DNA of 64,000 bases from an uncultured Candidatus Saccharimonadales bacterium (GTDB taxonomy: Bacteria > Patescibacteriota > Saccharimonadia > UBA4664): positions 220,697 to 284,696 of the forward strand of contig CAZSRA010000001.1 of assembly GCA_964609585.1 (NCBI GenBank), given 5' to 3'. This document shows, in pieces, positions 28,320 through 55,596 of the stretch. The notes under the pieces are model-generated. The model was not told the DNA's origin, did not search any database, and worked only from the letters and a program-made list of their open reading frames with translations. Position 1 is the first letter of the stretch. Every line of letters begins with the position of its first letter. Position numbers and translations under genes: made by a program.

Positions 28320-28406
28320 GCCGCTGTGGTGGAATGGTAGACACAAGGGACTCAAAATCCCTCGATCGTAAAGATCATGTCGGTTCGAGTCCGACCAGCG
28401 GTACCA
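28320..28406 (+). tRNA. tRNA-Leu (anticodon CAA), class II with long variable arm
   Basis: 7-bp acceptor stem GCCGCTG/CAGCGGT, anticodon loop CTCAAAA, T-arm GGTTCGAGTCC, and an encoded CCA. Confidence 0.85.
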
Positions 28407-28463
28407 AGAACTTATGCTTATGGCGATCCGATTTGGGTTGTTATTTGTTTTATCGCCTGTTTT

Positions 28464-29453
28464 TTAAGAAGCCTGTGCGACTAACTCTTCAAAATGCTCA
28501 AAGGTTGGTGGTGTTTCTTTTAAATTATCGGTAATGCCTGTGAGCAGAATGTAATCATTTCGCGCGTTCATACCGTGTCCTGTGTAACTATTCCAGCCCA
28601 ATTCTTTGGCTTTTTCGACAACATCAATTTCGAGGTGGGGACGAATGTCTACAAACACACCTTCTTTACCAGTGTGGGCTTCGAGAATTTGGTTGATGCC
28701 CGATTCGTCGGTGGCCCCTTCCTTTCCGGCGGCATTAATGACAATGACTCCTTCGGGCAAGGTTGATCCATCGATCTCACTGAGTGACGCACGATATTCG
28801 GTCGTGGTTAATTGTGCTAGGCTCCGGGCTAGATCAGATTTATTAGTAGGGTCGATTAAAACTAATTGACTGGGGTGTTGCGCCGCAATTCTTTTAGCTA
28901 CTGGCTCCCCTACCCCACCGACACCCACAAGAACTACTGGTTTGTCTTCGAAACTCCCCACTTCATCATTGAACCAGCTAACGAATGCTGGTGCATTGAG
29001 ATCGTAGGGGGCAAGCTTTCCTTCAGCATCACGGATGAGTGTATCAACGTTTTCGGAAGAATTTTCGTCTCCTAAAAACATTGCTCGAATGGTAGGCGCA
29101 CTTTTGTGTGGCTGGGTGATGTTGACGGCAGGTACACGATCCATATTCTCTACTAGCTCAAAGAAACGTTGCAACTCCTCAGTATCGTCTTTTTCGATGT
29201 CTACAGGCACATACAGAAAGTTTGGCAGGACTTGATTCATGTACGTGCGGCTAGTGGATTTGTCCCAGCCCTCAGAGTCTTTGTGGGCGATGTATGGGCA
29301 GATTGCGAAGTTCGGATAGTTTTCGATGAACGTTTTGAATCCTTCTACCCCTTTTGCCACTGGTATTTTTTCTTGGGCGAAAGGCATTTCGGCTGAAGCT
29401 GGAAATTCAGGGGATGGTTGATTTTCGTTGGGGTTGAATGAGGGTTGTTCCAT
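28464..29453 (-). CDS. shikimate/quinate dehydrogenase-family oxidoreductase (AroE-like)
   Basis: The segment NITQPHK resembles the NVTIPHK motif, followed by a Rossmann segment VVLVGVGGVG. The gene is noticeably more AT-rich than its neighbours and lies next to the tRNA. Confidence 0.5.
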   Translation of the reverse strand: MEQPSFNPNENQPSPEFPASAEMPFAQEKIPVAKGVEGFKTFIENYPNFAICPYIAHKDSEGWDKSTSRTYMNQVLPNFLYVPVDIEKDDTEELQRFFELVENMDRVPAVNITQPHKSAPTIRAMFLGDENSSENVDTLIRDAEGKLAPYDLNAPAFVSWFNDEVGSFEDKPVVLVGVGGVGEPVAKRIAAQHPSQLVLIDPTNKSDLARSLAQLTTTEYRASLSEIDGSTLPEGVIVINAAGKEGATDESGINQILEAHTGKEGVFVDIRPHLEIDVVEKAKELGWNSYTGHGMNARNDYILLTGITDNLKETPPTFEHFEELVAQAS

Positions 29454-38678: not shown

Positions 38679-41081
38679 ATGACGAAACTTGCGAGGAATC
38701 GAAGGGCTTTGTATGAGCCGTTGATTAATTCAGTGGGCACCGTGGGCCTGAGCCAGTGGCTCGCCGTGGCGCTTGCGGTGGTTGTGATTGGGGTATTGAT
38801 CGGAGGGATCGGTAGCAATCTGACCTCGGGACTAGAGGCTTTCGAGTTTAGCTACAATCCATATGCTTTTTTGTCGCTGATTGTGGTTGCGAGTAATCTC
38901 TGGTTGCTATTCTTTGTGGGGTGGGTGAAGTCTCGCTCGGCGAGTCTGGTGTGGCTTTCGGCCTATGTGGTTTGTCTTTTGTTGTGGTCGGCGGTGGACT
39001 TTTTGGTCCGGATTAGCGCTACGCCGGAGACAGCGCTTTTTTGGCAACCGATGGCCGCGGTGCCATACTTTTTTTCACCGGCTGTGCTATTTATGTTCGT
39101 TTTGAGCTATACGAAGCCAAATCAGGCCAGACACGGCTGGACAATGGCGGCTTTGTTTGTAACGGGGTCGTTATTGATCTTTTTTGATTTACGGACAACC
39201 TTGATCCATGATTACACGCAGCTTGGAGTGGCGAGCGGGTCCTGGAATGTGGTGACGCAGCCGGGGGTTTTGTTCAATGTCGCCCTACTATGGAGTGTTG
39301 GGCTGGTGCTGCTTGCGATGGGGTTGCTATTGCGATTTCATAGCCGGACGGTGGAAGCGGGGTCGCGGCTTCAGGCGCGATTTTTTATGGCGGCTGTATT
39401 TGTAGCTGGGGTTGCGAGTGTGGTGGGGGGTGGTGTGTGGCCGTTTGCCATTTTGTGTACGGCGGTAGCTGCAGCCGTGCTGGTGTACGGAGTTTGGCAT
39501 TATCAATCCCTAACGTTTAACCCACTTTTTGTAGCGACGAATATTTTGGAGACGATCAATGAGGCCGTGATTGGGGTGAGCCCTGATCTTAACGTGATGT
39601 ATGTGAACAAGGAGGCAAAGCGCTTGCTTGGCTATACTCAGGCACAGTTTGGGGCTTTGAAATTCCCCCATTTCTTGAGTCAGGAGTGGGACGCGCGGGT
39701 GCTAAAGAAGGCTTTGTTTGGACCACACGGCAGTGATGAAAATAACTTGTTTGACGCGATTGATTTGAGGCGCGCAGATGGCTCTACGGTAACGACCAAA
39801 CTGTCGGTGTCGCCGATTGTGGAGGACGGAGTGGCGCAGGGGCATTTGGTGGTAGTAACGGACATAAGTCGGATGGCTCACGAAACCGAGTTGATTGAGC
39901 GCACGGTGCTTGCGCGTACCCGGGAGGTGCAAGAGGCGCAGGCGACGCTGGTGGCATCGATTAATAGCATTAAGCTTGGCTTTATTATTACCGATAGCAA
40001 CCCAGAGGTTATCCGGGTAAATACGGTAGCGCATAATCTGTTTTGCCCGAGTTTTCGTAATCATGCGGCTGGCGATTGTACGCAGGTAACCATTGAGATG
40101 GTGCAGAGTCTTGTGCACGGTGATTTTTCGATTGCGAGCGATATCGCGACTTGTTTGAAGCGGCAATTGCCCCATGAGGTAAAAGATGTGTCGCTCAATG
40201 ATCATCACTGGCGATTGTATTTGTCGCCGATGGCCGTGGATCATGAGTCGATTGGGTGCGTAGTGTTGTTTCAGGATACGACCGAAGAACGGTTGCTGGA
40301 GCGCTCGCGTGATGAATTTTTCTCGATTGCCTCGCATGAGTTGCGCACGCCGCTTACGTCGATTAAAGGTAACTCGGCCTTGATTTTGCAGTATTATCAG
40401 GAGATCTTGAAGGATCAGGCTTTGAATGAAATGGTGGTGGACATTCATGATTCAAGCGATCGTTTGATTGAAATCGTGAATGACTTTTTGGATGTTTCGC
40501 GCTTGGAACAGGGGCGGATTGAATTTCACCTGGAGCAATTGTCGATTGCGAAGGTGATTGAAGAGGTGGTGTATGGGATGGGTGCGTTGCTCAAGCAAAA
40601 AGGCTTACACATAAAGCTGTCGCATAATATTTCGCGCTTGGATGCGCTCCCGATGGTGGTGGTGGACAAGAACCGGCTGAAGCAAATTTTGTTTAATTTG
40701 CTCGGGAATGCGGTGAAGTTTACGAGTAAGGGCTTCATTAAGATTGAGGCTGAGCTTTTGCAGGATGCCATAGAGGTGTCGATTACCGATTCGGGCATTG
40801 GGATTTCGCTGGAGTCCCAGGCGCTGCTGTTTCATAAATTTCAGCAAGCTGGGGATAGTATTTTGACCCGCGATAGCAGTCATGGGACGGGGCTTGGCCT
40901 CTACATTTCTCGGCTTTTGGCGGCTGGTATGGGTGGTAAGTTGGGTTTGCAAAAATCGGTGCTAGGTAAAGGAAGTACATTTTTCGTAAGAGTGCCGCTT
41001 TCGACACCGGCGCGACTCAGGCATTTGAACGATGTGAAGGTGGCGGCCGAGGCGGAAGAGGCGCTGGCGGATAAGAAATAA
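38679..41081 (+). CDS. sensor histidine kinase with N-terminal 7TM receptor domain, PAS, HisKA and HATPase (orphan; no adjacent response regulator)
   Basis: H-box SHELRTPLTSIKG; N and G boxes LLGNAVKF, DSGIGI, GTGLGLYI; about 7 TM helices at the N-terminus. Confidence 0.85.
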   Translation: MTKLARNRRALYEPLINSVGTVGLSQWLAVALAVVVIGVLIGGIGSNLTSGLEAFEFSYNPYAFLSLIVVASNLWLLFFVGWVKSRSASLVWLSAYVVCLLLWSAVDFLVRISATPETALFWQPMAAVPYFFSPAVLFMFVLSYTKPNQARHGWTMAALFVTGSLLIFFDLRTTLIHDYTQLGVASGSWNVVTQPGVLFNVALLWSVGLVLLAMGLLLRFHSRTVEAGSRLQARFFMAAVFVAGVASVVGGGVWPFAILCTAVAAAVLVYGVWHYQSLTFNPLFVATNILETINEAVIGVSPDLNVMYVNKEAKRLLGYTQAQFGALKFPHFLSQEWDARVLKKALFGPHGSDENNLFDAIDLRRADGSTVTTKLSVSPIVEDGVAQGHLVVVTDISRMAHETELIERTVLARTREVQEAQATLVASINSIKLGFIITDSNPEVIRVNTVAHNLFCPSFRNHAAGDCTQVTIEMVQSLVHGDFSIASDIATCLKRQLPHEVKDVSLNDHHWRLYLSPMAVDHESIGCVVLFQDTTEERLLERSRDEFFSIASHELRTPLTSIKGNSALILQYYQEILKDQALNEMVVDIHDSSDRLIEIVNDFLDVSRLEQGRIEFHLEQLSIAKVIEEVVYGMGALLKQKGLHIKLSHNISRLDALPMVVVDKNRLKQILFNLLGNAVKFTSKGFIKIEAELLQDAIEVSITDSGIGISLESQALLFHKFQQAGDSILTRDSSHGTGLGLYISRLLAAGMGGKLGLQKSVLGKGSTFFVRVPLSTPARLRHLNDVKVAAEAEEALADKK

Positions 41082-41127
41082 AAATTAGGCTTGCGGTCGC
41101 GGATTATTGCGCTTATGCTTACTGCAT

Positions 41128-41808
41128 ATGGCACTCATAAGTGTAAAAAACTTGACACGGACATATAAGCTTGGTGGCGAGACCTTTAACGCACTTGATG
41201 ACGTGTCGCTCGAAGTGGAGGCGGGTGAGTTTGTGGCGATTACCGGACCTTCGGGCTCGGGTAAGTCGACGCTGGCCAATATTATTGGCGGACTCGACCG
41301 TCCCTCGGCTGGGAGCGTGATGGTGGATGGGGTGAGTTTGAAGGATGCTGGCGATAAACCGCTATCGGAATACCGGAATCATCACATTGGCTTTGTGTTT
41401 CAGTCGTTTAACTTGCAGGCACACGAGACGACGCTGGAGAATGTGATGATGCCGCTCGTGCTTGCGCGCATGAAACGGCGCGACCGTGTGAAACGAGCCA
41501 CGGAATGCTTGACGGCTGTGGGTCTGGCTGACCGATTGCGCCACAAGCCTACGGAGCTTTCGGGTGGGCAGCGGCAGCGGGTAGCGATTGCGCGGGCGCT
41601 GGCCGTAAAGCCATCGATCATTATCGCCGATGAGCCAACGGGGAATCTTGATTCGGCTCGTGGGCTCGAGGTAATGGAACTGCTCAAAAAACTCAATAAG
41701 GACGGGATTACGCTGATCATAATTACGCATGATGCGAGTATTGCGGCCATGGCGGACCGGACGGTGACAATTAAGGATGGCCATTTAACGGTGAAACGAG
41801 GCGCTTAA
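41128..41808 (+). CDS. ABC transporter ATP-binding protein, MacB/LolD/FtsE-like
   Basis: Walker A GPSGSGKST, signature LSGGQRQRVAIARAL, Walker B IIADEPT. Start taken at MALISV; the ORF could extend back to 41107. Confidence 0.8.
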   Translation: MALISVKNLTRTYKLGGETFNALDDVSLEVEAGEFVAITGPSGSGKSTLANIIGGLDRPSAGSVMVDGVSLKDAGDKPLSEYRNHHIGFVFQSFNLQAHETTLENVMMPLVLARMKRRDRVKRATECLTAVGLADRLRHKPTELSGGQRQRVAIARALAVKPSIIIADEPTGNLDSARGLEVMELLKKLNKDGITLIIITHDASIAAMADRTVTIKDGHLTVKRGA

Positions 41809-41809
41809 G

Positions 41810-43240
41810 ATGCGGTTTAGTGACATTATTTTGACGGCTCTGCGTAACATTCGACGGCAGAAGCTGCGGTCGGTGCTAACGATTTTTGCGGTGGTGATTG
41901 GTGCAACTTCGGTAACCATAATGCTCGCGCTAGTGACGGGGGTGAAGACGTTTTTTGTGAGCCAGTTTTCGGCCAATGGGACATTGCAGCAGATTGCGAT
42001 TTCGCAGAAGGCGGATCTCACGAAATTTGGCGACGCTGGGCATGATGGTGGTGGGTGTGATAGCTGCGTGAAGCTGACGGACGCTATGACGGACAAGATT
42101 AAGGCGATTCCGCACGTGACCGGCGTGGCACGGAATTTAACCTCTGGGATGGTGGAATCGATTACGTACAACGGGGTGAAATTGAGTCTGCAACAGGTGG
42201 TGGGCTACGATGCCAACGGTGTAGTGACGAACACGATGTCGGCGGGGCGTGACATTGGGCCGAGTGATATGGCGGATGTGATTACGGTAACGAGTGAATA
42301 CGCCGATAAATGGGGCTTTAAGGGGCACTATTCGGATCTGTTGGGCAAGCAGGCGCAACTGACCACGCGTGGCGGCTATAGCGGCGTGGGTGCGACGGTC
42401 ACTCCCCCATCGAACCAGCCAGGCAACGGTGGCAATAATGATCCGCGAAATATGCCGGCGACGGTGCTTACGGCGACTATTGTGGGAGTGCAAGATTCGG
42501 GCGGCGATAATGGTGGGCAATCGGTGCGGGGTCCATTGGCCTGGGTACGACAGATGAATGTGCAGCACATGTACCAAATGACCGCGGCGGATCAGAAGGC
42601 CAATGAAAGCCAGTGTCGGAATGTGCCGGGGCCGTGCAACCCGGTGCAACATATGACGCTGGTGGCTGAGGATCAATTTGATAGCTCTGGTTACAATTCG
42701 CTGACGGCGAAGGTGGATGATCCGAAGAATGCGGCGGCTGCGGTGGTGGAGATTAAGAAATTGGGTGTGGGAGCAGCGGATGCGGAGAGCTTCATTAAAG
42801 CGCAACTGACGATCTTTAACATTATTGGTTATGTGCTCGGTGGGATCGGCGGCATTGCGCTTCTCGTTGCCACGATCGGGGTGATTAACACGATGGTGAT
42901 GGCGATTTTGGAGCGCACACGCGAGATCGGAGTGCTGCGGGCGTGCGGCGCTACGAAGAGTACGATCCGGCGGCTGTTTACGATTGAGGCGGGGCTGTTG
43001 GGCTTTTGGGGTGGAGTGTTTGGAGTGGCTTTCGGGTACGGGCTGACGCTGGTGGCGAACGTTTTGATCAATCAGCAACTGCACACCAACGCAGTAAAAG
43101 CGGCCAACATTATTGCATTGCCGTGGTGGCTCATTGGAAGCGTGATTGGGGCGACGACGGTGATTGGGATGCTGGCTGGACTGTATCCGGCAATGCGGGC
43201 AGCGCGGCTCAATCCGGTGGATGCGCTGCGGTACGAATAG
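41810..43240 (+). CDS. ABC transporter permease, FtsX/MacB-type with large periplasmic domain
   Basis: One TM helix, a periplasmic domain of about 270 aa, then the FtsX 3-TM module (GVINTMVMAILERTREIGVLRACGA). Confidence 0.75.
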   Translation: MRFSDIILTALRNIRRQKLRSVLTIFAVVIGATSVTIMLALVTGVKTFFVSQFSANGTLQQIAISQKADLTKFGDAGHDGGGCDSCVKLTDAMTDKIKAIPHVTGVARNLTSGMVESITYNGVKLSLQQVVGYDANGVVTNTMSAGRDIGPSDMADVITVTSEYADKWGFKGHYSDLLGKQAQLTTRGGYSGVGATVTPPSNQPGNGGNNDPRNMPATVLTATIVGVQDSGGDNGGQSVRGPLAWVRQMNVQHMYQMTAADQKANESQCRNVPGPCNPVQHMTLVAEDQFDSSGYNSLTAKVDDPKNAAAAVVEIKKLGVGAADAESFIKAQLTIFNIIGYVLGGIGGIALLVATIGVINTMVMAILERTREIGVLRACGATKSTIRRLFTIEAGLLGFWGGVFGVAFGYGLTLVANVLINQQLHTNAVKAANIIALPWWLIGSVIGATTVIGMLAGLYPAMRAARLNPVDALRYE

Positions 43241-43434
43241 GCATCAACTACTTCCAAATCTAAGTCAGTAGTTCTAGGGTAACGACGCTTTAACTGATCA
43301 CTTTTAAATTACGTAAAAAGCCTTTTTCTTCTATCCCATCTCACGCAGTTCCCCGGCCGTAGGGTCGAGGGGATTCATTTAAGCTCTGCGAAAATTCTTC
43401 GATTCTCGAGTTTGGGGGAGTGTAAACTATAAAG

Positions 43435-43463
43435 TTGATATATTATGCTAAATATTATATAAT
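43435..43463 (+). promoter_or_regulatory. consensus sigma70-type promoter (TTGATA-17 bp-TATAAT)
   Basis: -35 TTGATA at 43435-43440, an exact 17-bp spacer, and a perfect -10 TATAAT at 43458-43463. The GAAGGAG RBS lies 6 nt before the ATG at 43511. Confidence 0.55.
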
Positions 43464-43510
43464 GTAAAAGTCATCCAGACCCACCCCCAAGAGAGAACGA
43501 AGGAGACAGC

Positions 43511-43822
43511 ATGGTCACCGATATGGTGCACAGGATGCTGAGAGTGTCCGATGTCAACGGACACGGCTGGGATGTCCTCGTCTGGGGCACACTGCCCGAA
43601 GTCGAAGCCATTCGTGACCGCCTACTCGCTCAAATCGCAAGCGGCGAGGTCACCACGACCTTCACGGTTCATCGCGGACCGAACGACATCAAGACCCTCA
43701 CCATGGAGCTGCCGGCCGTCACGTGCGAGTTGGTCCCCACGTATCTCGTACGAATCACCGGGACAGTCACGGACGATGGCGATCGCCTCACCATGCAGGC
43801 TGACGACACCAGTACTGCCTAG
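43511..43822 (+). CDS. small hypothetical protein (103 aa), cassette gene 1
   Basis: Strong RBS and promoter. Codon third positions are C-rich on the + strand, against the local G/T strand bias. No recognisable domain. Confidence 0.5.
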   Translation: MVTDMVHRMLRVSDVNGHGWDVLVWGTLPEVEAIRDRLLAQIASGEVTTTFTVHRGPNDIKTLTMELPAVTCELVPTYLVRITGTVTDDGDRLTMQADDTSTA

Positions 43823-43859
43823 CGACGCTGAAGCTCTCGCCCGCCAAGAGTCCACAACT

Positions 43860-44060
43860 ATGGACTACGACTTCGGCGGGCGGGTCAAGGACTTCGAGGC
43901 GCTGTATGTCGCCGAGACCTTCGAGCACATGTGTCAGCTCCACGACACCTGTCAGAACGGTGTCGGCTCCAGCATCGACTGGTACATCGGCCAGGACGAG
44001 ATTGGCACCATCACTGCGCTGGACATCACCCAGCTGGAAACGAACAGCAAGCTGAGCTAG
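43860..44060 (+). CDS. small hypothetical protein (66 aa), cassette gene 2
   Basis: ATG-initiated ORF 37 nt after gene 1 with the same C-rich codon bias. The 169-aa ORF of the ORF track covers it in this frame, but the first half of that ORF is out of frame with gene 1. Confidence 0.35.
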   Translation: MDYDFGGRVKDFEALYVAETFEHMCQLHDTCQNGVGSSIDWYIGQDEIGTITALDITQLETNSKLS

Positions 44061-44069
44061 GCCTCGGCC

Positions 44070-44136
44070 GGGCTAGTAGCTCAAGGGTAGAGCACCGCGC
44101 AAGCGGAGGTAGCAGGTTCGAATCCTGCCTAGTTCG
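44070..44136 (+). pseudogene. degenerate tRNA-like element (intact acceptor, D and T arms; anticodon arm truncated)
   Basis: GGGCTAG-TA-GCTC-AAGGGTA-GAGC and GCAGG-TTCGAAT-CCTGC-CTAGTTC-G fit tRNA acceptor/D/T geometry. Only 17 nt lie between the D and T arms where about 22 are needed, and no CCA is encoded. Confidence 0.45.
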
Positions 44137-44143
44137 CAAATAA

Positions 44144-44185
44144 CCCCGGATATTCATAGTGGTATCCGGGGTTCATGCCTTTTTG
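44144..44185 (+). terminator. intrinsic terminator-like hairpin
   Basis: Perfect 9-bp stem CCCCGGATA/TATCCGGGG with a 10-nt loop, followed by a TTTTT run. Confidence 0.5.
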
Positions 44186-44271
44186 GTCTAATGGATAATG
44201 GGTGATCTCACTTAGCGACTTATTGAAAACGGATCGCGGATGCGTGGTCTGTGATATATTCTGACCGTGTG

Positions 44272-45402
44272 CTAGCTTTTTACGACTTCCCAGGGGAATT
44301 CGGGGCGGCCGAAGTGACCATAGGCGGCGGTGGCGCGGTAGATGGGGCGACGCAGGTCTAGACCTTCAATGATGCCTTTGACGCTGGTGTCGAGGAGGTT
44401 GTGGCAAAAGGCGTCAATTTCTTTCGGGGTAGCATGGGCGGTGCCGAAGGTGTCGACTTCTTGCATGACGGGGTGCTTGGCGCCAATGAAATAAGCGAGA
44501 GCCACTTCGGCGCGGTCGGCAAGGCCAGCGGCTACGAGGTTTTTGGCGAGGTAGCGAGCGGCGTAGGCGGCGGAGCGGTCGACTTTGGTCGGGTCCTTGC
44601 CGCTGAAGGCGCCGCCGCCCACGCGGGCGTAGCCACCATAGCCATCGACAACGATTTTGCGACCAGTGAGGCCAGCGTCGCTGACGGGACCAGAGATGTG
44701 CCAGATGCCGGTGCCGTTTACGACGACGTCGATGGGCTCGATGTTGAAGTTGTAGCGTTTGAGCGTGGGGACAATGATGGTTTTGTAGATGTCGTGTTTG
44801 ACCTGCTCAAGTTTGACGTGTTCCTGATGGGGTACAGCAATCGTGACATGGGAGATGCCAACGGCTTTGCCGTCTTGATATTTAACGGTGACTTGGGCTT
44901 TGCCGTCGGGGCGGAGGTAGCTGAGGCGGCCGGACTCGCGGGCTTGGTCGATAGCGAGGGTGAGCTGGTGCGCTAGCGTAATAGGCAAAGGCATGAGCTC
45001 AGGAGTTTCGCGGCAAGCGTAGCCGAACATCATGCCTTGGTCGCCGGCACCGTCTAGGTCTACGCCGGCCGCGATTTCAGGTGATTGCTGGCGAATATAG
45101 ATGTCGATGGCGGCTTGGTCGTTGAAGCTTAGAGCGGGGTCGGTGTAGCCGAGGCGGCGGATTTCGGTGCGAACGATGTTTTCGAGATCGAGTTTAGCGG
45201 TAGTGAGGATTTCGCCGGCTAAAATTACGCGGCCAGCTGTGGCCAGGGTTTCGACGCCAGTATGGCCATTGGGATCTTGGCGGAGGATTTCATCGACGAT
45301 AGCGTCGGAGATTTGGTCGCAGACTTTGTCGGGATGACCGGCACAGACGCTTTCGGAGGTGAAGAATTGGATGGGCATGAGAAAACCTTTCTCCGAAGGC
45401 AA
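44272..45402 (-). CDS. metK: S-adenosylmethionine synthetase
   Basis: GHPDKVCDQISDAIVD and GGGAFSGKDPTKVDRSAAY signatures. Confidence 0.92.
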   Translation of the reverse strand: MPSEKGFLMPIQFFTSESVCAGHPDKVCDQISDAIVDEILRQDPNGHTGVETLATAGRVILAGEILTTAKLDLENIVRTEIRRLGYTDPALSFNDQAAIDIYIRQQSPEIAAGVDLDGAGDQGMMFGYACRETPELMPLPITLAHQLTLAIDQARESGRLSYLRPDGKAQVTVKYQDGKAVGISHVTIAVPHQEHVKLEQVKHDIYKTIIVPTLKRYNFNIEPIDVVVNGTGIWHISGPVSDAGLTGRKIVVDGYGGYARVGGGAFSGKDPTKVDRSAAYAARYLAKNLVAAGLADRAEVALAYFIGAKHPVMQEVDTFGTAHATPKEIDAFCHNLLDTSVKGIIEGLDLRRPIYRATAAYGHFGRPEFPWEVVKS

Positions 45403-45574
45403 GAAAGGTGTAGTGACTTCACATATCTCCCCGATCGGGCTAGACGTAGCACCTTCATGTTTAGATGAGGTTGCTGGCAGGTCGACGGGCTAGATCCCTC
45501 GCTGCACTCTTGATATGAATTATTTGATTGTACGGCTTATGTTACGCGTTTGATGTTGGTTCGGCAATGGGTTT

Positions 45575-54831: not shown

Positions 54832-55596
54832 CTACACTATTTCTCTTGGGGCTTCATCTAAGAGCTGGCTGAAACGTTCATGGTCTATGTCTGTCGATCC
54901 TTCTCCGATGAGGTCGCTTAGCTCGCTCTCTACGTAGATACCTGGCGCTGTACCCCACTGGATCGCTAGAGATAGATGGGGATCAACGCCGGACGGCTGT
55001 TGATTTTTAATAAGCTTGTTTACGAGAGATTCACTTATTGCGTACCCTAAAGCTTCCATAGCGGCATTATTATCGGGAGGGGTGTCTGGGGTTGGGTGCA
55101 AGTGCTGGGCTAAAGTGACATCTACCTCTAGGTCGCTAAATGCTTCATCGGAATGGGCAGCAGTCATCGGTTTTTGAAGAGATCCTCCAAAGAGAGGGTA
55201 TTTTATCCATCTGATTTGAGCAAGGAACGGTTCGCCATGCCAGGAAAATGGTACGCCTTCTTCAGGCAATGAGGGTAGGTGCCTGCGTAATGATCGGTGC
55301 TCTTGTGCCTGCATTTGGTGAGCTACTAGGTGCATAACAGATCGAGCGTCGGCATCCTCATCTTCAATATGGATTTCGGTAACAAGACCACGCCAGGGGG
55401 TTCGGGAAAATCTTTCCCCCTCTTCTGTAGACGGAAGCGTTTCAATGGTGATGTTGCTATCGAAGAGCGCAAATAAGTCCGGGATGGGTTGGTGATCAGG
55501 AGAATTTGATGCTTCGTCGGCAATAGCTGCGATTTCTTTGGCCCAGTTTTGGGATGATTCTGATTGGTTGGGGATATTTTCGGGTATTTCAGCCAT
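54832..55596 (-). CDS. hypothetical acidic protein
   Basis: 254-aa ORF with no recognisable motif. Confidence 0.35.
   Translation of the reverse strand: MAEIPENIPNQSESSQNWAKEIAAIADEASNSPDHQPIPDLFALFDSNITIETLPSTEEGERFSRTPWRGLVTEIHIEDEDADARSVMHLVAHQMQAQEHRSLRRHLPSLPEEGVPFSWHGEPFLAQIRWIKYPLFGGSLQKPMTAAHSDEAFSDLEVDVTLAQHLHPTPDTPPDNNAAMEALGYAISESLVNKLIKNQQPSGVDPHLSLAIQWGTAPGIYVESELSDLIGEGSTDIDHERFSQLLDEAPREIV

What the first reader, a model, noticed from the sequence alone, without database searches (positions are those of the whole stretch)
43241..44200. Self-contained foreign-looking mini-cassette: consensus promoter, two tiny unknown ORFs, a crippled tRNA-like element and a terminator
The MacB-type permease ends at 43240. 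Right after it comes an AT-rich spacer carrying a textbook TTGATA-17-TATAAT promoter and a GAAGGAG RBS. Two short ORFs follow (103 and 66 aa) with no recognisable family. Then comes a 67-nt element with perfect tRNA acceptor, D and T arms but a truncated anticodon arm and no CCA. A 9-bp perfect hairpin plus T-run terminator closes the unit.

The ORFs use C-ending codons on the + strand, whereas every other + strand gene here is G/T-ending, so the block carries the opposite strand skew to its surroundings. This is consistent with recent acquisition or inversion. The layout suggests a small mobile or selfish module, for example a toxin-antitoxin or abortive-infection-type pair with a tRNA-derived attachment remnant or regulatory tRNA-like RNA.
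Basis: partly seen in the sequence, partly recalled or inferred. Interest (0 to 1): 0.8.

Follow-up and report, generated by a model that had tools for sequence, protein, structure and literature searches.

The report
Foreign mini-operon ending in tRNA mimic
A Saccharibacteria (TM7) chromosome carries a roughly 0.7-kb piece of foreign DNA with two small genes, one of a family otherwise named only from Streptomyces, and a 67-nt tRNA-shaped RNA without an anticodon, whose core is almost identical to RNAs otherwise found only beside Ro60 (rsr) genes.

Summary
After the MacB-type permease come a near-consensus promoter, two ORFs of 103 and 66 aa, a 67-nt tRNA-like element and a hairpin.

The block is foreign. 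It is the strongest GC-skew anomaly in the 64-kb window, and its third-codon-position GC content (GC3 0.81) lies outside every host gene in either orientation.

ORF1 is not familyless. It belongs to an uncharacterised family of about 100 aa whose only named members are Streptomyces proteins, lying in prophages and insertion-sequence-rich DNA. ORF2 is an orphan.

The "crippled tRNA" is better read as a tRNA mimic. Its anticodon arm is a 4-bp stem capped by a GCAA tetraloop. Its 44-nt core matches, at 43 of 44 positions, RNAs encoded beside Ro60/rsr genes in metagenomes. In those RNAs the small stem is kept by compensatory changes and the loop is always GNRA. A model built only from the rsr-linked RNAs scores the window element at 73.5 bits, against 13 bits for the host tRNA-Leu.

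Here the element has no rsr gene within 20 kb and no Ro60-binding stem, but it has an open 7-bp acceptor stem with G3·U70.

No evidence supports a toxin-antitoxin pair, an abortive-infection pair or an attachment-site remnant.

Likely mechanism (inferred): co-transcription with the ORFs, then release by RNase P. Function in this genome is unknown. It is a new variant of a known kind.

The parts
43241..43434 (+). AT-rich intergenic spacer after the MacB-type permease. It could be native or foreign.
   Evidence: GC is 0.46-0.48. No ORF of 30 aa or more runs on the + strand in 43272-43510; two - strand ORFs of 38 and 46 aa lie at 43448-43611.
43435..43463 (+). Sigma-70-type promoter-like site, TTGATA-17-TATAAT.
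   Evidence: Matches 11 of 12 positions. One of two such sites in 64 kb; 0.09 expected by chance. Its use is inferred, not shown.
43499..43505 (+). Shine-Dalgarno sequence GAAGGAG, 5 nt upstream of the ORF1 ATG.
   Evidence: Read directly from the sequence.
43511..43822 (+). ORF1, 103 aa. Member of an uncharacterised small-protein family whose named members are all from Streptomyces, where it lies in prophages and other mobile-element DNA.
   Evidence: GC3 is 0.75 with clear periodicity. Full-database phmmer gives hits at E 1e-5 to 1e-3. A profile search finds 12 members at E 1e-22 to 1e-37; the named ones are all Streptomyces. Alignment A2 has 11 invariant columns.
43860..44060 (+). ORF2, 66 aa. 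An orphan with extreme high-GC codon usage.
   Evidence: GC3 is 0.90 and third-position A is 0.01. The only match among 5.8 billion protein clusters is itself. No match in phages, PDB or the HMM libraries.
44070..44136 (+). tRNA mimic. Its parts are:
- acceptor stem 44070-44076 paired with 44129-44135 (G1-C72, G2·U71, G3·U70, then four Watson-Crick pairs)
- U8 A9
- D arm 44079-44093
- A26
- mini arm 44095-44106 (CCGC-GCAA-GCGG) in place of the anticodon arm
- variable loop AGGUA
- T arm 44112-44128 (GCAGG-UUCGAAU-CCUGC)
- discriminator G at 44136
- no encoded CCA
   Evidence: Rfam tRNA 51.1 bits. Not called by ARAGORN. Cloverleaf minimum-free-energy fold, z-score -3.1. The core 44086-44129 is 43 of 44 identical to rsr-linked RNAs and scores 73.5 bits, E 2e-23, with model R1 built without it.
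44142..44184 (+). Hairpin (AACCCCGGATA / TATCCGGGGTT) followed after 6 nt by TTTTT. Probable terminator, possibly shared with the convergent metK gene.
   Evidence: inverted repeat I5.

Best explanation
The block from about 43.47 to 44.19 kb is a recently acquired mosaic fragment of foreign DNA, most likely from an actinobacterial phage or other mobile element. It sits between native convergent genes (the MacB-type permease and metK) of a Saccharibacteria chromosome.

It forms one transcription unit: promoter, ORF1, ORF2, a tRNA-shaped RNA, then a hairpin.

The tRNA-shaped RNA is not a broken tRNA. It is a stand-alone copy of a tRNA-mimic module that is otherwise found in RNAs encoded next to Ro60/rsr genes, that is, in bacterial Y-RNA loci. 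In that module the anticodon arm is replaced by a 4-bp stem capped with a GNRA tetraloop, while the D arm, T arm and the nucleotides that form the tRNA elbow are kept.

**Proposed mechanism (inferred, not shown)**
1. The element is transcribed as the 3' end of the ORF1-ORF2 mRNA.
2. Because it has an open 7-bp acceptor stem stacked on a 5-bp T stem, RNase P cuts at G1 (44070).
3. The 3' side is trimmed and CCA is added.
4. The product is a stable L-shaped RNA of about 70 nt. It cannot decode. It can occupy proteins that recognise the tRNA elbow or acceptor end, such as TruB, Dus, the CCA-adding enzyme, and possibly AlaRS through G3·U70.

Whether it has a job in this genome or is a passenger of the transfer is open. 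ORF1 and ORF2 are small accessory proteins of unknown function.
For: **Foreign origin**
- The block has the strongest negative GC skew in the window.
- GC3 is 0.75 (ORF1) and 0.90 (ORF2), against 0.44-0.70 for host genes.
- None of 20,000 host samples of 169 codons, on either strand, reaches this GC3.
- The named ORF1 relatives are all from Streptomyces. They lie in prophages carrying integrase, head, tail, endolysin and HNH genes or in IS21/Tn3/resolvase-rich DNA.
- The same junctions appear in an independent Logan assembly that is 100% identical over 4131 nt, so this is not an assembly chimera.

**Mimic rather than wreck**
- The core is 43 of 44 identical to group X RNAs. At the positions my search pattern did not fix, 22 of 23 are identical.
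- All 9 metagenome hits with the CCGC-GNRA-GCGG arm lie next to a TROVE + vWA_Ro60 protein gene. Where strand was checked (L164, L175, and L154 of the CCCU-GAAA-AGGG variant), they are on the same strand as that gene.
- The mini stem covaries (CCGC/GCGG against CCCU/AGGG) and the loop is always GNRA: GCAA, GUGA, GCGA or GAAA. All cells are paired and 4 pairs change on both sides.
- Model R1, built without the window element, gives it 73.5 bits. The host tRNA-Leu gets 13 bits and the other matches in the phage, genome and metagenome loci searched, ordinary tRNAs among them, 10-51 bits.
- U8, A14, G18-G19, A21, G46 and the T loop UUCGAAU are all present (read from the sequence).

**Processing**
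- Precedent: the YrlA RNA of M. smegmatis has a 7-bp acceptor stem, is cut by RNase P and receives CCA in vivo (PMC4201824).
- There is no promoter-like site between ORF2 and the element, which are only 9 nt apart.
Against: - There is no rsr/TROVE gene anywhere in the 64-kb window.
- There is no Ro60-binding stem. The GNCGAAN0-1G motif occurs only inside the ORFs, at chance frequency. Rfam YrlA gives no hit even at E up to 10. The usual partner of this RNA module is therefore absent locally.
- The ORFs and the RNA are never found together elsewhere.
- ORF1 is only 31-37% identical to its relatives. The family was not found in the INPHARED phage, PLSDB plasmid or IMG/VR collections. The donor is therefore unidentified.
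- Two family members sit on contigs of GC 0.55-0.59 and unknown taxon.
- A15 and A48 do not form a canonical Levitt pair.
- The T-run is not adjacent to the hairpin.
- There is no expression, processing or conservation evidence for this locus. No close relative of the genome was available.
Confidence: 0.6

Rival explanations
1. It is a working Y RNA. The element, perhaps with flanking sequence, is a Ro60 partner, and the rsr gene lies elsewhere in the genome, outside the 64-kb window.
For: Its core is indistinguishable from rsr-linked RNAs. Only 64 kb of a contig of at least 369 kb could be inspected.
Against: There is no rsr gene within 20 kb on either side. The flanks do not pair into a Ro60-binding stem, and no GNCGAAN0-1G motif lies in the non-coding flank. 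Rfam YrlA gives no hit. Known bacterial Y RNAs are defined by lying next to rsr on the same strand (PMC4201824).
Confidence: 0.12
2. It is a dead tRNA pseudogene. A phage or host tRNA gene lost about 5 nt from its anticodon loop by accident and has no function.
For: Phage contigs hold many tRNA-shaped genes with odd or shortened anticodon arms, some of them inside tRNA arrays. There is no CCA and no sign of conservation at this locus.
Against: All four stems are fully paired. The residual arm is a C(GCAA)G hairpin, and a single deletion would not leave a 5-bp stem. The same arm, at 22 of 23 free positions, recurs in 9 independent rsr loci with compensatory changes and a conserved GNRA loop.
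Confidence: 0.12
3. It is a toxin-antitoxin or abortive-infection module. ORF1 and ORF2 form the pair and the tRNA-like RNA regulates them or acts as a decoy.
For: There are two small adjacent co-directional genes on foreign DNA with their own promoter. One ORF1 homologue lies beside Mrr-type nuclease genes.
Against: Neither ORF has a significant match in PADLOC, Pfam, NCBIfam or PHROGs (only sub-threshold Pfam hits at E 0.04-0.15). ORF1-family genes have unrelated neighbours in five other contexts, so there is no conserved partner. ORF2 has no homologue at all. The AlphaFold models are too poor to use, with pLDDT of 49 and 44.
Confidence: 0.08
4. It is a scar from an integrative element. A native tRNA gene served as the attachment site and was damaged in its anticodon loop by imprecise integration or excision.
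For: Many integrases cross over in the anticodon loop of tRNA genes (general knowledge). A 14-nt direct repeat, GCCTTTTTnnTCTA, flanks the block at 43320 and 44177.
Against: The foreign DNA lies upstream of the element, not downstream as expected after integration into a tRNA 3' half. Neither nor one search identified an integrase among the neighbouring genes scanned. The repeat matches 12 of 14 positions, is AT-rich and is at chance level. This model does not explain the homology of the mini arm to rsr-linked RNAs.
Confidence: 0.04
5. It is an assembly or binning artefact that joins DNA of two organisms.
For: The genome is a metagenome-assembled genome, and the block's composition differs sharply from its flanks.
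Against: Both junctions lie inside one contig. An independent Logan assembly of run SRR9179560 reproduces 40470-44600 exactly.
Confidence: 0.03

Closest known systems
rsr-adjacent tRNA-like RNAs with a mini arm, found here (group X: L153, L155, L161, L164, L167, L168, L169, L171; also L175 and L154/L173)
   Same: The D-loop to T-arm core is 43 of 44 identical. Both have a 4-bp stem with a GNRA tetraloop in place of the anticodon arm and the same variable loop (AGGUA) and T arm. L175 and L154 are also non-permuted cloverleaves that score 43-47 bits against Rfam tRNA.
   Different: Those RNAs lie within about 1 kb of a Ro60/rsr gene and on its strand, among sub-threshold YrlA-like modules. Group X has an outer stem (CUGCCGG/CCGGCAG) and an extra hairpin. 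The window element has none of these. It is instead fused to a two-gene mRNA in a CPR (candidate phyla radiation) bacterium.
YrlA, the bacterial Y RNA-like family (Rfam RF02553; Chen et al. 2014, PMC4201824; Wang et al. 2018, bioRxiv 10.1101/312249)
   Same: Both are tRNA mimics that keep the D arm, T arm and elbow contacts but lack an anticodon loop. YrlA is known from Actinobacteria and mycobacteriophages. The M. smegmatis member, with a 7-bp acceptor stem, is cut by RNase P and receives CCA.
   Different: YrlA is circularly permuted. Its acceptor stem is a closed hairpin and its 'anticodon stem' runs into the Ro60-binding module with the GNCGAAN0-1G motif. The window element is in normal tRNA order with an open acceptor stem. 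It has no Ro60-binding module, no rsr neighbour and no Rfam YrlA hit.
mascRNA / MALAT1 3'-end processing in mammals (from my own knowledge; not tested here)
   Same: A tRNA-like cloverleaf with a reduced anticodon arm sits at the 3' end of a longer transcript. RNase P cleavage both releases the small RNA and forms the upstream RNA's 3' end, and CCA is then added. This is what the window element would work like.
   Different: That system is eukaryotic and unrelated in sequence. It is an analogy of mechanism only.
SpF41 sRNA of Streptococcus (Rfam RF02435)
   Same: The consensus has the same layout: an acceptor-like stem, a short hairpin with a 4-nt loop, a T arm with GGUUCGAAUCC, then a terminator hairpin (alignment).
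   Different: The score is 26.7 bits against a gathering score of 52. Its D region is degenerate and its function is unknown. The window element is not a member.
tRNA-like domain of tmRNA
   Same: It has no anticodon and a G3·U70 acceptor stem, is processed by RNase P, and is charged by AlaRS, which does not read the anticodon.
   Different: tmRNA has a reduced D arm, pseudoknots and a tag-peptide reading frame. ARAGORN finds no tmRNA here, and the discriminator is G rather than A.
tRNA-shaped genes with shortened or missing anticodon arms in phage contigs
   Same: They are stand-alone cloverleaves with good acceptor, D and T arms and a mini arm. For example, L054 at 10728 has CUAG-GAAA-CUAG, scores 48.5 bits with R1, and follows a train of small co-directional ORFs.
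   Different: Their sequences are heterogeneous, and none shares the CCGC-GNRA-GCGG arm. I found no description of them in the paper library.

Membership tests
Canonical tRNA (RF00005) | Acceptor stem of 7 bp, D arm, and T arm with a UUCRANY loop. | tested here: met
   51.1 bits against a gathering score of 29. Cloverleaf minimum-free-energy fold.
Canonical tRNA (RF00005) | Anticodon arm with a 5-bp stem and a 7-nt loop carrying an anticodon. | tested here: not met
   The arm is 4 bp with a 4-nt GCAA loop. ARAGORN does not call it.
Canonical tRNA (RF00005) | A 3' CCA, either encoded or added. | not testable with these tools
   Not encoded: the acceptor stem is followed by G-CAAA. The host tRNA-Leu does encode CCA. 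Whether CCA is added needs RNA data.
YrlA / bacterial Y RNA (RF02553) | Encoded next to an rsr (Ro60, TROVE) gene on the same strand. | tested here: not met
   tblastn with three Rsr proteins finds nothing in the window. The genome outside the window was not visible.
YrlA / bacterial Y RNA (RF02553) | Ro60-binding stem with a GNCGAAN0-1G motif near the 5' end. | tested here: not met
   The flanks do not pair. The motif occurs only inside the ORFs, at chance frequency.
YrlA / bacterial Y RNA (RF02553) | tRNA-like effector domain with conserved D and T arms and no anticodon loop. | tested here: met
YrlA / bacterial Y RNA (RF02553) | Circularly permuted order with a closed acceptor hairpin, and a match to the Rfam model. 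| tested here: not met
   The element is in normal tRNA order with an open acceptor stem. No YrlA hit at E up to 10.
rsr-linked mini-arm tRNA-like RNAs (model R1, defined here) | Core made of GGUAGAGC, N, a 4-bp stem, a GNRA loop, the 4-bp stem return, AGGNN, then a T arm. | tested here: met
   73.5 bits, E 2e-23, with a model built without the window element. 43 of 44 identical.
rsr-linked mini-arm tRNA-like RNAs (model R1, defined here) | Lies beside an rsr gene. | tested here: not met
SpF41 sRNA (RF02435) | Score at or above the Rfam gathering score. | tested here: not met
   26.7 bits against 52.
Type II toxin-antitoxin or abortive-infection pair | Match of either protein to a known toxin, antitoxin or defence family. 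| tested here: not met
   No significant match in PADLOC, Pfam, NCBIfam or PHROGs (only sub-threshold Pfam hits at E 0.04-0.15).
Type II toxin-antitoxin or abortive-infection pair | A conserved two-gene partnership across loci. | tested here: not met
   Neighbours of ORF1-family genes are mutually unrelated, and none resembles ORF2.
Type II toxin-antitoxin or abortive-infection pair | Toxicity of one partner and neutralisation by the other. | not testable with these tools
   Needs expression experiments.
tRNA-gene attachment-site remnant (attL/attR) | A partial 3' copy of a tRNA, flanking direct repeats, and an integrase or the element body downstream. | tested here: not met
   The full 5' half is present. 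The foreign DNA lies upstream. Neither nor one search identified an integrase among the neighbouring genes scanned. The repeats are at chance level.
tmRNA | tRNA-like domain together with a tag reading frame and pseudoknots. | tested here: not met
   ARAGORN finds no tmRNA and Rfam gives no tmRNA hit.
ORF1 small-protein family (alignment A2) | About 91-113 aa, with the invariant residues L10, G17, V24, E32, G45, E46, V53, P68, C72 and L74 (ORF1 numbering). | tested here: met
   Profile E-value 8e-34 for ORF1. Alignment.

The most novel reading that the evidence does not exclude
The element is a functional tRNA mimic that works without Ro60. It is cut out of an mRNA 3' end by RNase P, receives CCA, and may be charged with alanine through G3·U70. 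It travels with small phage genes between Actinobacteria and their Saccharibacteria epibionts. It acts as a decoy or tether for a tRNA-binding enzyme, for example one that targets the tRNA acceptor end or elbow. That would make the 'effector module' of bacterial Y RNAs an autonomous, mobile RNA part. It would also link it to the many tRNA-shaped genes without a normal anticodon arm seen in phage contigs, 6 of 20 of which have G3·U70.
Probability: 0.15. Interest if true: 0.75.

Novelty: new variant of a known kind. Interest (0 to 1): 0.5.

Why it matters
**For Y-RNA biology.** The effector that binds the tRNA-like domain of bacterial Y RNAs is still unknown. A copy of that domain living on its own, without Ro60 nearby and with an open acceptor end that RNase P could use, offers a simpler handle. 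If the RNA is made and stable, whatever binds it is a candidate effector.

**For Saccharibacteria.** Saccharibacteria live attached to Actinobacteria. Here a block with non-host codon usage carries a gene whose named relatives are all from Streptomyces, where two of the loci examined are prophages. This is a concrete, datable case of gene flow into a reduced CPR genome, probably from the host's mobile elements.

**For annotation.**
- The Rfam tRNA model calls the element a tRNA, while ARAGORN ignores it.
- The Rfam YrlA model misses the whole rsr-linked mini-arm RNA species.

**If it is only a passenger,** the finding is a tidy example of horizontal transfer and no more.

Tried and rejected
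**Presence or absence in related genomes.** The one genome-collection scan found MacB relatives only at 62-69% identity in other Saccharibacteria. None has metK, ORF1, ORF2 or a tRNA-like element beside MacB. The empty-site test could therefore not be done.

**Close copies of the element.** A specific pattern for the whole core gave 0 hits in IMG/VR and in JGI metagenomes. It failed only because I had fixed A at position 26; the relaxed pattern found the rsr-linked group. A pattern for the mini arm gave 0 hits in IMG/VR.

**The ORFs.**
- Pfam, PHROGs, PADLOC and NCBIfam gave no significant match.
- PDB sequence searches gave nothing below E 0.3.
- tblastn against INPHARED phages and PLSDB plasmids gave no match.
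- A scan of IMG/VR with the family alignment found none.
- Single-sequence AlphaFold models were poor (pLDDT 49 and 44). I therefore ran no fold searches, because the matches would be meaningless.

**Alternative reading frames.** The 169-aa ORF at 43551-44060 and the - strand ORFs were rejected on periodicity: their position-2 GC equals ORF1's position-3 GC.

**Simple inversion of native genes.** Rejected.

**Flanking repeats as boundaries of an insertion or inversion.** Both are at chance level. About 0.8 perfect 10-nt inverted repeats are expected in 1.3 kb.

**A link between the ORFs and rsr loci.** None found, in either direction.

**Taxonomy of the rsr-linked group.** The cluster look-up gave no organism names.

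**Literature.** I found no description of stand-alone tRNA-like genes without an anticodon in bacteria or phages, apart from tmRNA and YrlA.
Full report
**What is in the sequence**

The window comes from a Saccharibacteria (TM7, CPR) genome. Relatives of the MacB-type permease at 41810-43240 are 62-69% identical and are all Saccharibacteria or Saccharimonadia metagenome-assembled genomes.

- The permease ends at 43240 and has FtsX and MacB_PCD domains.
- An AT-rich spacer follows. It holds TTGATA-17-TATAAT at 43435-43463. This is one of only two sites in 64 kb with at most one mismatch to the consensus, where 0.09 are expected.
- GAAGGAG lies 5 nt before the ATG at 43511.
- ORF1 is 43511-43822 (103 aa) and ORF2 is 43860-44060 (66 aa).
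- A 67-nt tRNA-like element spans 44070-44136.
- A hairpin spans 44142-44173, and a T-run follows 6 nt later.
- Downstream lies the convergent metK gene (44272-45402, - strand) with its SAM riboswitch.

An independent Logan assembly of run SRR9179560 reproduces 40470-44600 exactly. The junctions are therefore real.

**The block is foreign, not inverted**

The whole window has a strong GC skew linked to the replication strand. It averages +0.22 on the + strand whichever way the genes point. As a result, + strand genes end codons in G (0.37-0.51) and - strand genes end them in C (0.29-0.60).

The block is the most extreme exception in the window. Its 300-nt minimum is -0.158 and its 600-nt minimum is -0.066, about four standard deviations below the mean.

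Both ORFs show clean three-base periodicity, so they are very probably coding. The overlapping 169-aa frame and the - strand frames do not show it.

Their codon usage fits neither host class. GC3 is 0.75 for ORF1 and 0.90 for ORF2, against 0.44-0.70 for host genes, and both G and C are high at the third position. In 20,000 contiguous 169-codon samples from host genes of each strand, none reached the observed GC3 of 0.805. Flipping a native segment cannot produce this. Import from a genome of higher GC content can.

**The two proteins**

Neither ORF has a significant match in Pfam, PHROGs, PADLOC or NCBIfam; the only hits are sub-threshold Pfam matches at E 0.04-0.15. In the word-indexed search of 5.8 billion protein clusters each finds only itself.

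A full phmmer pass over 1.8 billion representative proteins found weak but consistent relatives of ORF1, about 100 aa long, at E 1e-5 to 1e-3. A profile built from these retrieved 12 members at E 1e-22 to 1e-37. Every member that carries a name is a Streptomyces hypothetical protein. The 13-sequence alignment has 11 invariant columns.

In Streptomyces genomes the gene sits in two kinds of context:
- prophages carrying integrase, HNH endonuclease, head protein, collagen-like minor tail and endolysin genes;
- DNA rich in IS21, Tn3 and resolvase genes.

One longer homologue lies beside Mrr-type nuclease genes.

The gene next to each family member is different and unrelated, and none resembles ORF2. 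There is therefore no conserved two-gene partnership, which argues against a toxin-antitoxin reading.

The family was not found in the INPHARED, PLSDB or IMG/VR collections. With identities of only 31-37%, the actual donor remains unsampled. ORF2 stays an orphan. The AlphaFold models were too poor to use.

**The tRNA-like element**

Rfam's tRNA model gives 51.1 bits against a gathering score of 29, but with 4 nt where the anticodon loop region belongs. ARAGORN ignores the element. The free-energy minimum is a cloverleaf. Its parts are:
- acceptor stem GGGCUAG/CUAGUUC, with G2·U71 and G3·U70;
- U8 and A9;
- D arm GCUC-AAGGGUA-GAGC;
- A26;
- a 4-bp stem CCGC/GCGG capped by GCAA;
- variable loop AGGUA;
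- T arm GCAGG-UUCGAAU-CCUGC;
- discriminator G, with no encoded CCA. The host tRNA-Leu does encode CCA.

The nucleotides that build the tRNA elbow are in place: U8, A14, G18-G19, A21, G46 and the T loop.

A single deletion from a normal arm of 5 bp and 7 nt would not leave this perfect C(GCAA)G hairpin.

**Where the same module occurs**

A broad pattern for tRNA-shaped genes with a shortened middle arm returned more than 120 IMG/VR contigs. Such objects are therefore common in phage DNA, though heterogeneous.

A pattern requiring a GNRA loop in the right place returned 25 metagenome loci. Nine of these carry the same arm, CCGC-GNRA-GCGG, as the window element. Eight of the nine (group X) are identical to it at 43 of 44 core positions (44086-44129). 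At the positions the pattern left free, 22 of 23 match.

All nine lie within about 1 kb of a gene for a Ro60/Rsr orthologue; in L164 and L175, where strand was checked, they are on its strand. TROVE and vWA_Ro60 domains were confirmed in three of them, and tblastn supports the rest. A tenth type (L154/L173), also beside rsr, has CCCU-GAAA-AGGG.

Across these RNAs the mini stem is always paired. Two of its four pairs change on both sides, and the loop is GCAA, GUGA, GCGA or GAAA, that is, always GNRA.

The same loci hold sub-threshold YrlA-like modules, so these are Y-RNA loci.

A covariance model built only from the rsr-linked RNAs scores the window element at 73.5 bits (E 2e-23). That is higher than its own training member L175 (70.6 bits). 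The host tRNA-Leu gets 13 bits, and the other matches in the phage, genome and metagenome loci searched, ordinary tRNAs among them, get 10-51 bits. The element is therefore a member of this RNA module by sequence and structure.

**What it is not**

Bacterial Y RNAs of the YrlA type are defined by four features (PMC4201824; bioRxiv 10.1101/312249):
- adjacency to rsr;
- a Ro60-binding stem with a GNCGAAN0-1G motif;
- a circularly permuted tRNA-like domain;
- an acceptor stem that is a closed hairpin.

The window has none of these.
- It has no rsr gene.
- The flanks do not pair.
- The motif occurs only inside the ORFs, at chance frequency.
- Rfam YrlA gives no hit.
- The element is in normal tRNA order with an open 7-bp acceptor stem.

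It is not SpF41, which scores 26.7 bits against a gathering score of 52, although the layout is alike. It is not tmRNA.

It is not an attachment-site scar. The 5' half is intact, the foreign DNA lies on the wrong side, neither nor one search identified an integrase among the neighbouring genes scanned, and the flanking repeats are at chance level.

**How it most likely works**

*Shown:* the anatomy, the foreign composition, the ORF1 family and its contexts, and the homology of the RNA core to rsr-linked RNAs.

*Inferred:*
- One transcript runs from the promoter to the hairpin, because only 9 nt and no promoter-like site separate ORF2 from the element.
- RNase P cuts at G1. The 7-bp acceptor stem stacked on the 5-bp T stem is its main determinant, and the M. 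smegmatis YrlA RNA, which has a 7-bp acceptor stem, is cut by RNase P and CCA-tailed in vivo (PMC4201824).
- The released L-shaped RNA cannot decode. It would be recognised by enzymes that bind the tRNA elbow and acceptor end.

*Speculative:* G3·U70 could allow charging by AlaRS, the one synthetase that needs only this pair, as in tmRNA. The neighbouring G2·U71 and the G73 discriminator weaken the case.

Cleavage would also strip the mRNA of its terminal hairpin. This resembles the MALAT1/mascRNA arrangement in mammals (my own knowledge; an analogy only).

Without Ro60 nearby, the RNA may equally be an inert passenger.

**Verdict**

The block is foreign and the RNA is tRNA-like. It is not a toxin-antitoxin pair and not an attachment-site remnant.

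The unit is a mosaic. ORF1 (a Streptomyces mobile-element family), ORF2 (an orphan) and the RNA (an rsr-locus family) are found together only here.

It is a new variant of a known kind: a stand-alone tRNA mimic of the Y-RNA type, in normal tRNA order, carried on horizontally acquired DNA in a CPR bacterium.

Interest is moderate (0.5). It rises if the RNA is expressed and processed, and falls if it is a silent passenger.

Noticed in passing
window 28320-29453: This is the second, weaker patch of negative GC skew in the window (28351-29250). The gene 28464-29453 (- strand) has GC3 of 0.44 and only weak NAD-binding Rossmann hits. It lies directly next to tRNA-Leu(CAA) at 28320-28406, so it may be another foreign gene inserted at a tRNA.
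   Followed up: partly
window 54832-55596 (- strand): A 254-aa ORF with unusually low GC3 (0.44) and no Pfam match.
   Followed up: no
window 1-64000: There is a very strong compositional bias linked to the replication strand. GC skew is about +0.22 on the + strand whichever way genes point, so the third codon position is G-rich in + strand genes and C-rich in - strand genes.
   Followed up: partly
window 45420-45519 (- strand): A SAM riboswitch (S-box, 56.2 bits) lies upstream of metK.
   Followed up: no
L021-L140 (IMG/VR) and L151-L175 (JGI); examples are L123, L116, L163, L131, L054 10728-10771 and L044 3980-4025: Many phage and metagenome contigs carry tRNA-shaped genes with good acceptor, D and T arms but a shortened or missing anticodon arm. 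Twenty distinct well-formed ones were found in the fetched loci. Six of the 20, the window element among them, have G3·U70, and four of those six also have A73, the alanine identity set seen in tmRNA. Some sit in phage tRNA arrays and others follow trains of small ORFs. I found no description of them in the paper library.
   Followed up: partly
L164 11210-11345, L168 4505-4640, L153, L155, L161, L167, L169, L171: Group X RNAs lie about 85 nt upstream of rsr in L164. Each has an outer stem (CUGCCGG/CCGGCAG), a tRNA-like domain in normal order with the mini arm, and an extra hairpin between the T arm and the 3' acceptor strand. Neither the Rfam YrlA model nor the tRNA model reaches its gathering score on them. 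This looks like a Y-RNA species that current models miss.
   Followed up: partly
L145 6001-6276, L146 6001-6294, L147 6001-6309, L141 5001-5312, L143 770-1483: The ORF1 family is an undescribed small-protein family of 91-113 aa (one member is 237 aa). Residues L10, G17, V24, E32, G45, E46, V53, P68, C72 and L74 are invariant. It lies in Streptomyces prophages and IS-rich DNA, and once beside two Mrr_cat nuclease genes.
   Followed up: partly
window 43312-43321 and 44275-44284: A perfect 10-nt inverted repeat, CGTAAAAAGC / GCTTTTTACG, brackets the block, and its right arm overlaps the last codons of metK. About 0.8 such repeats are expected by chance in 1.3 kb, so it is probably not meaningful.
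   Followed up: yes
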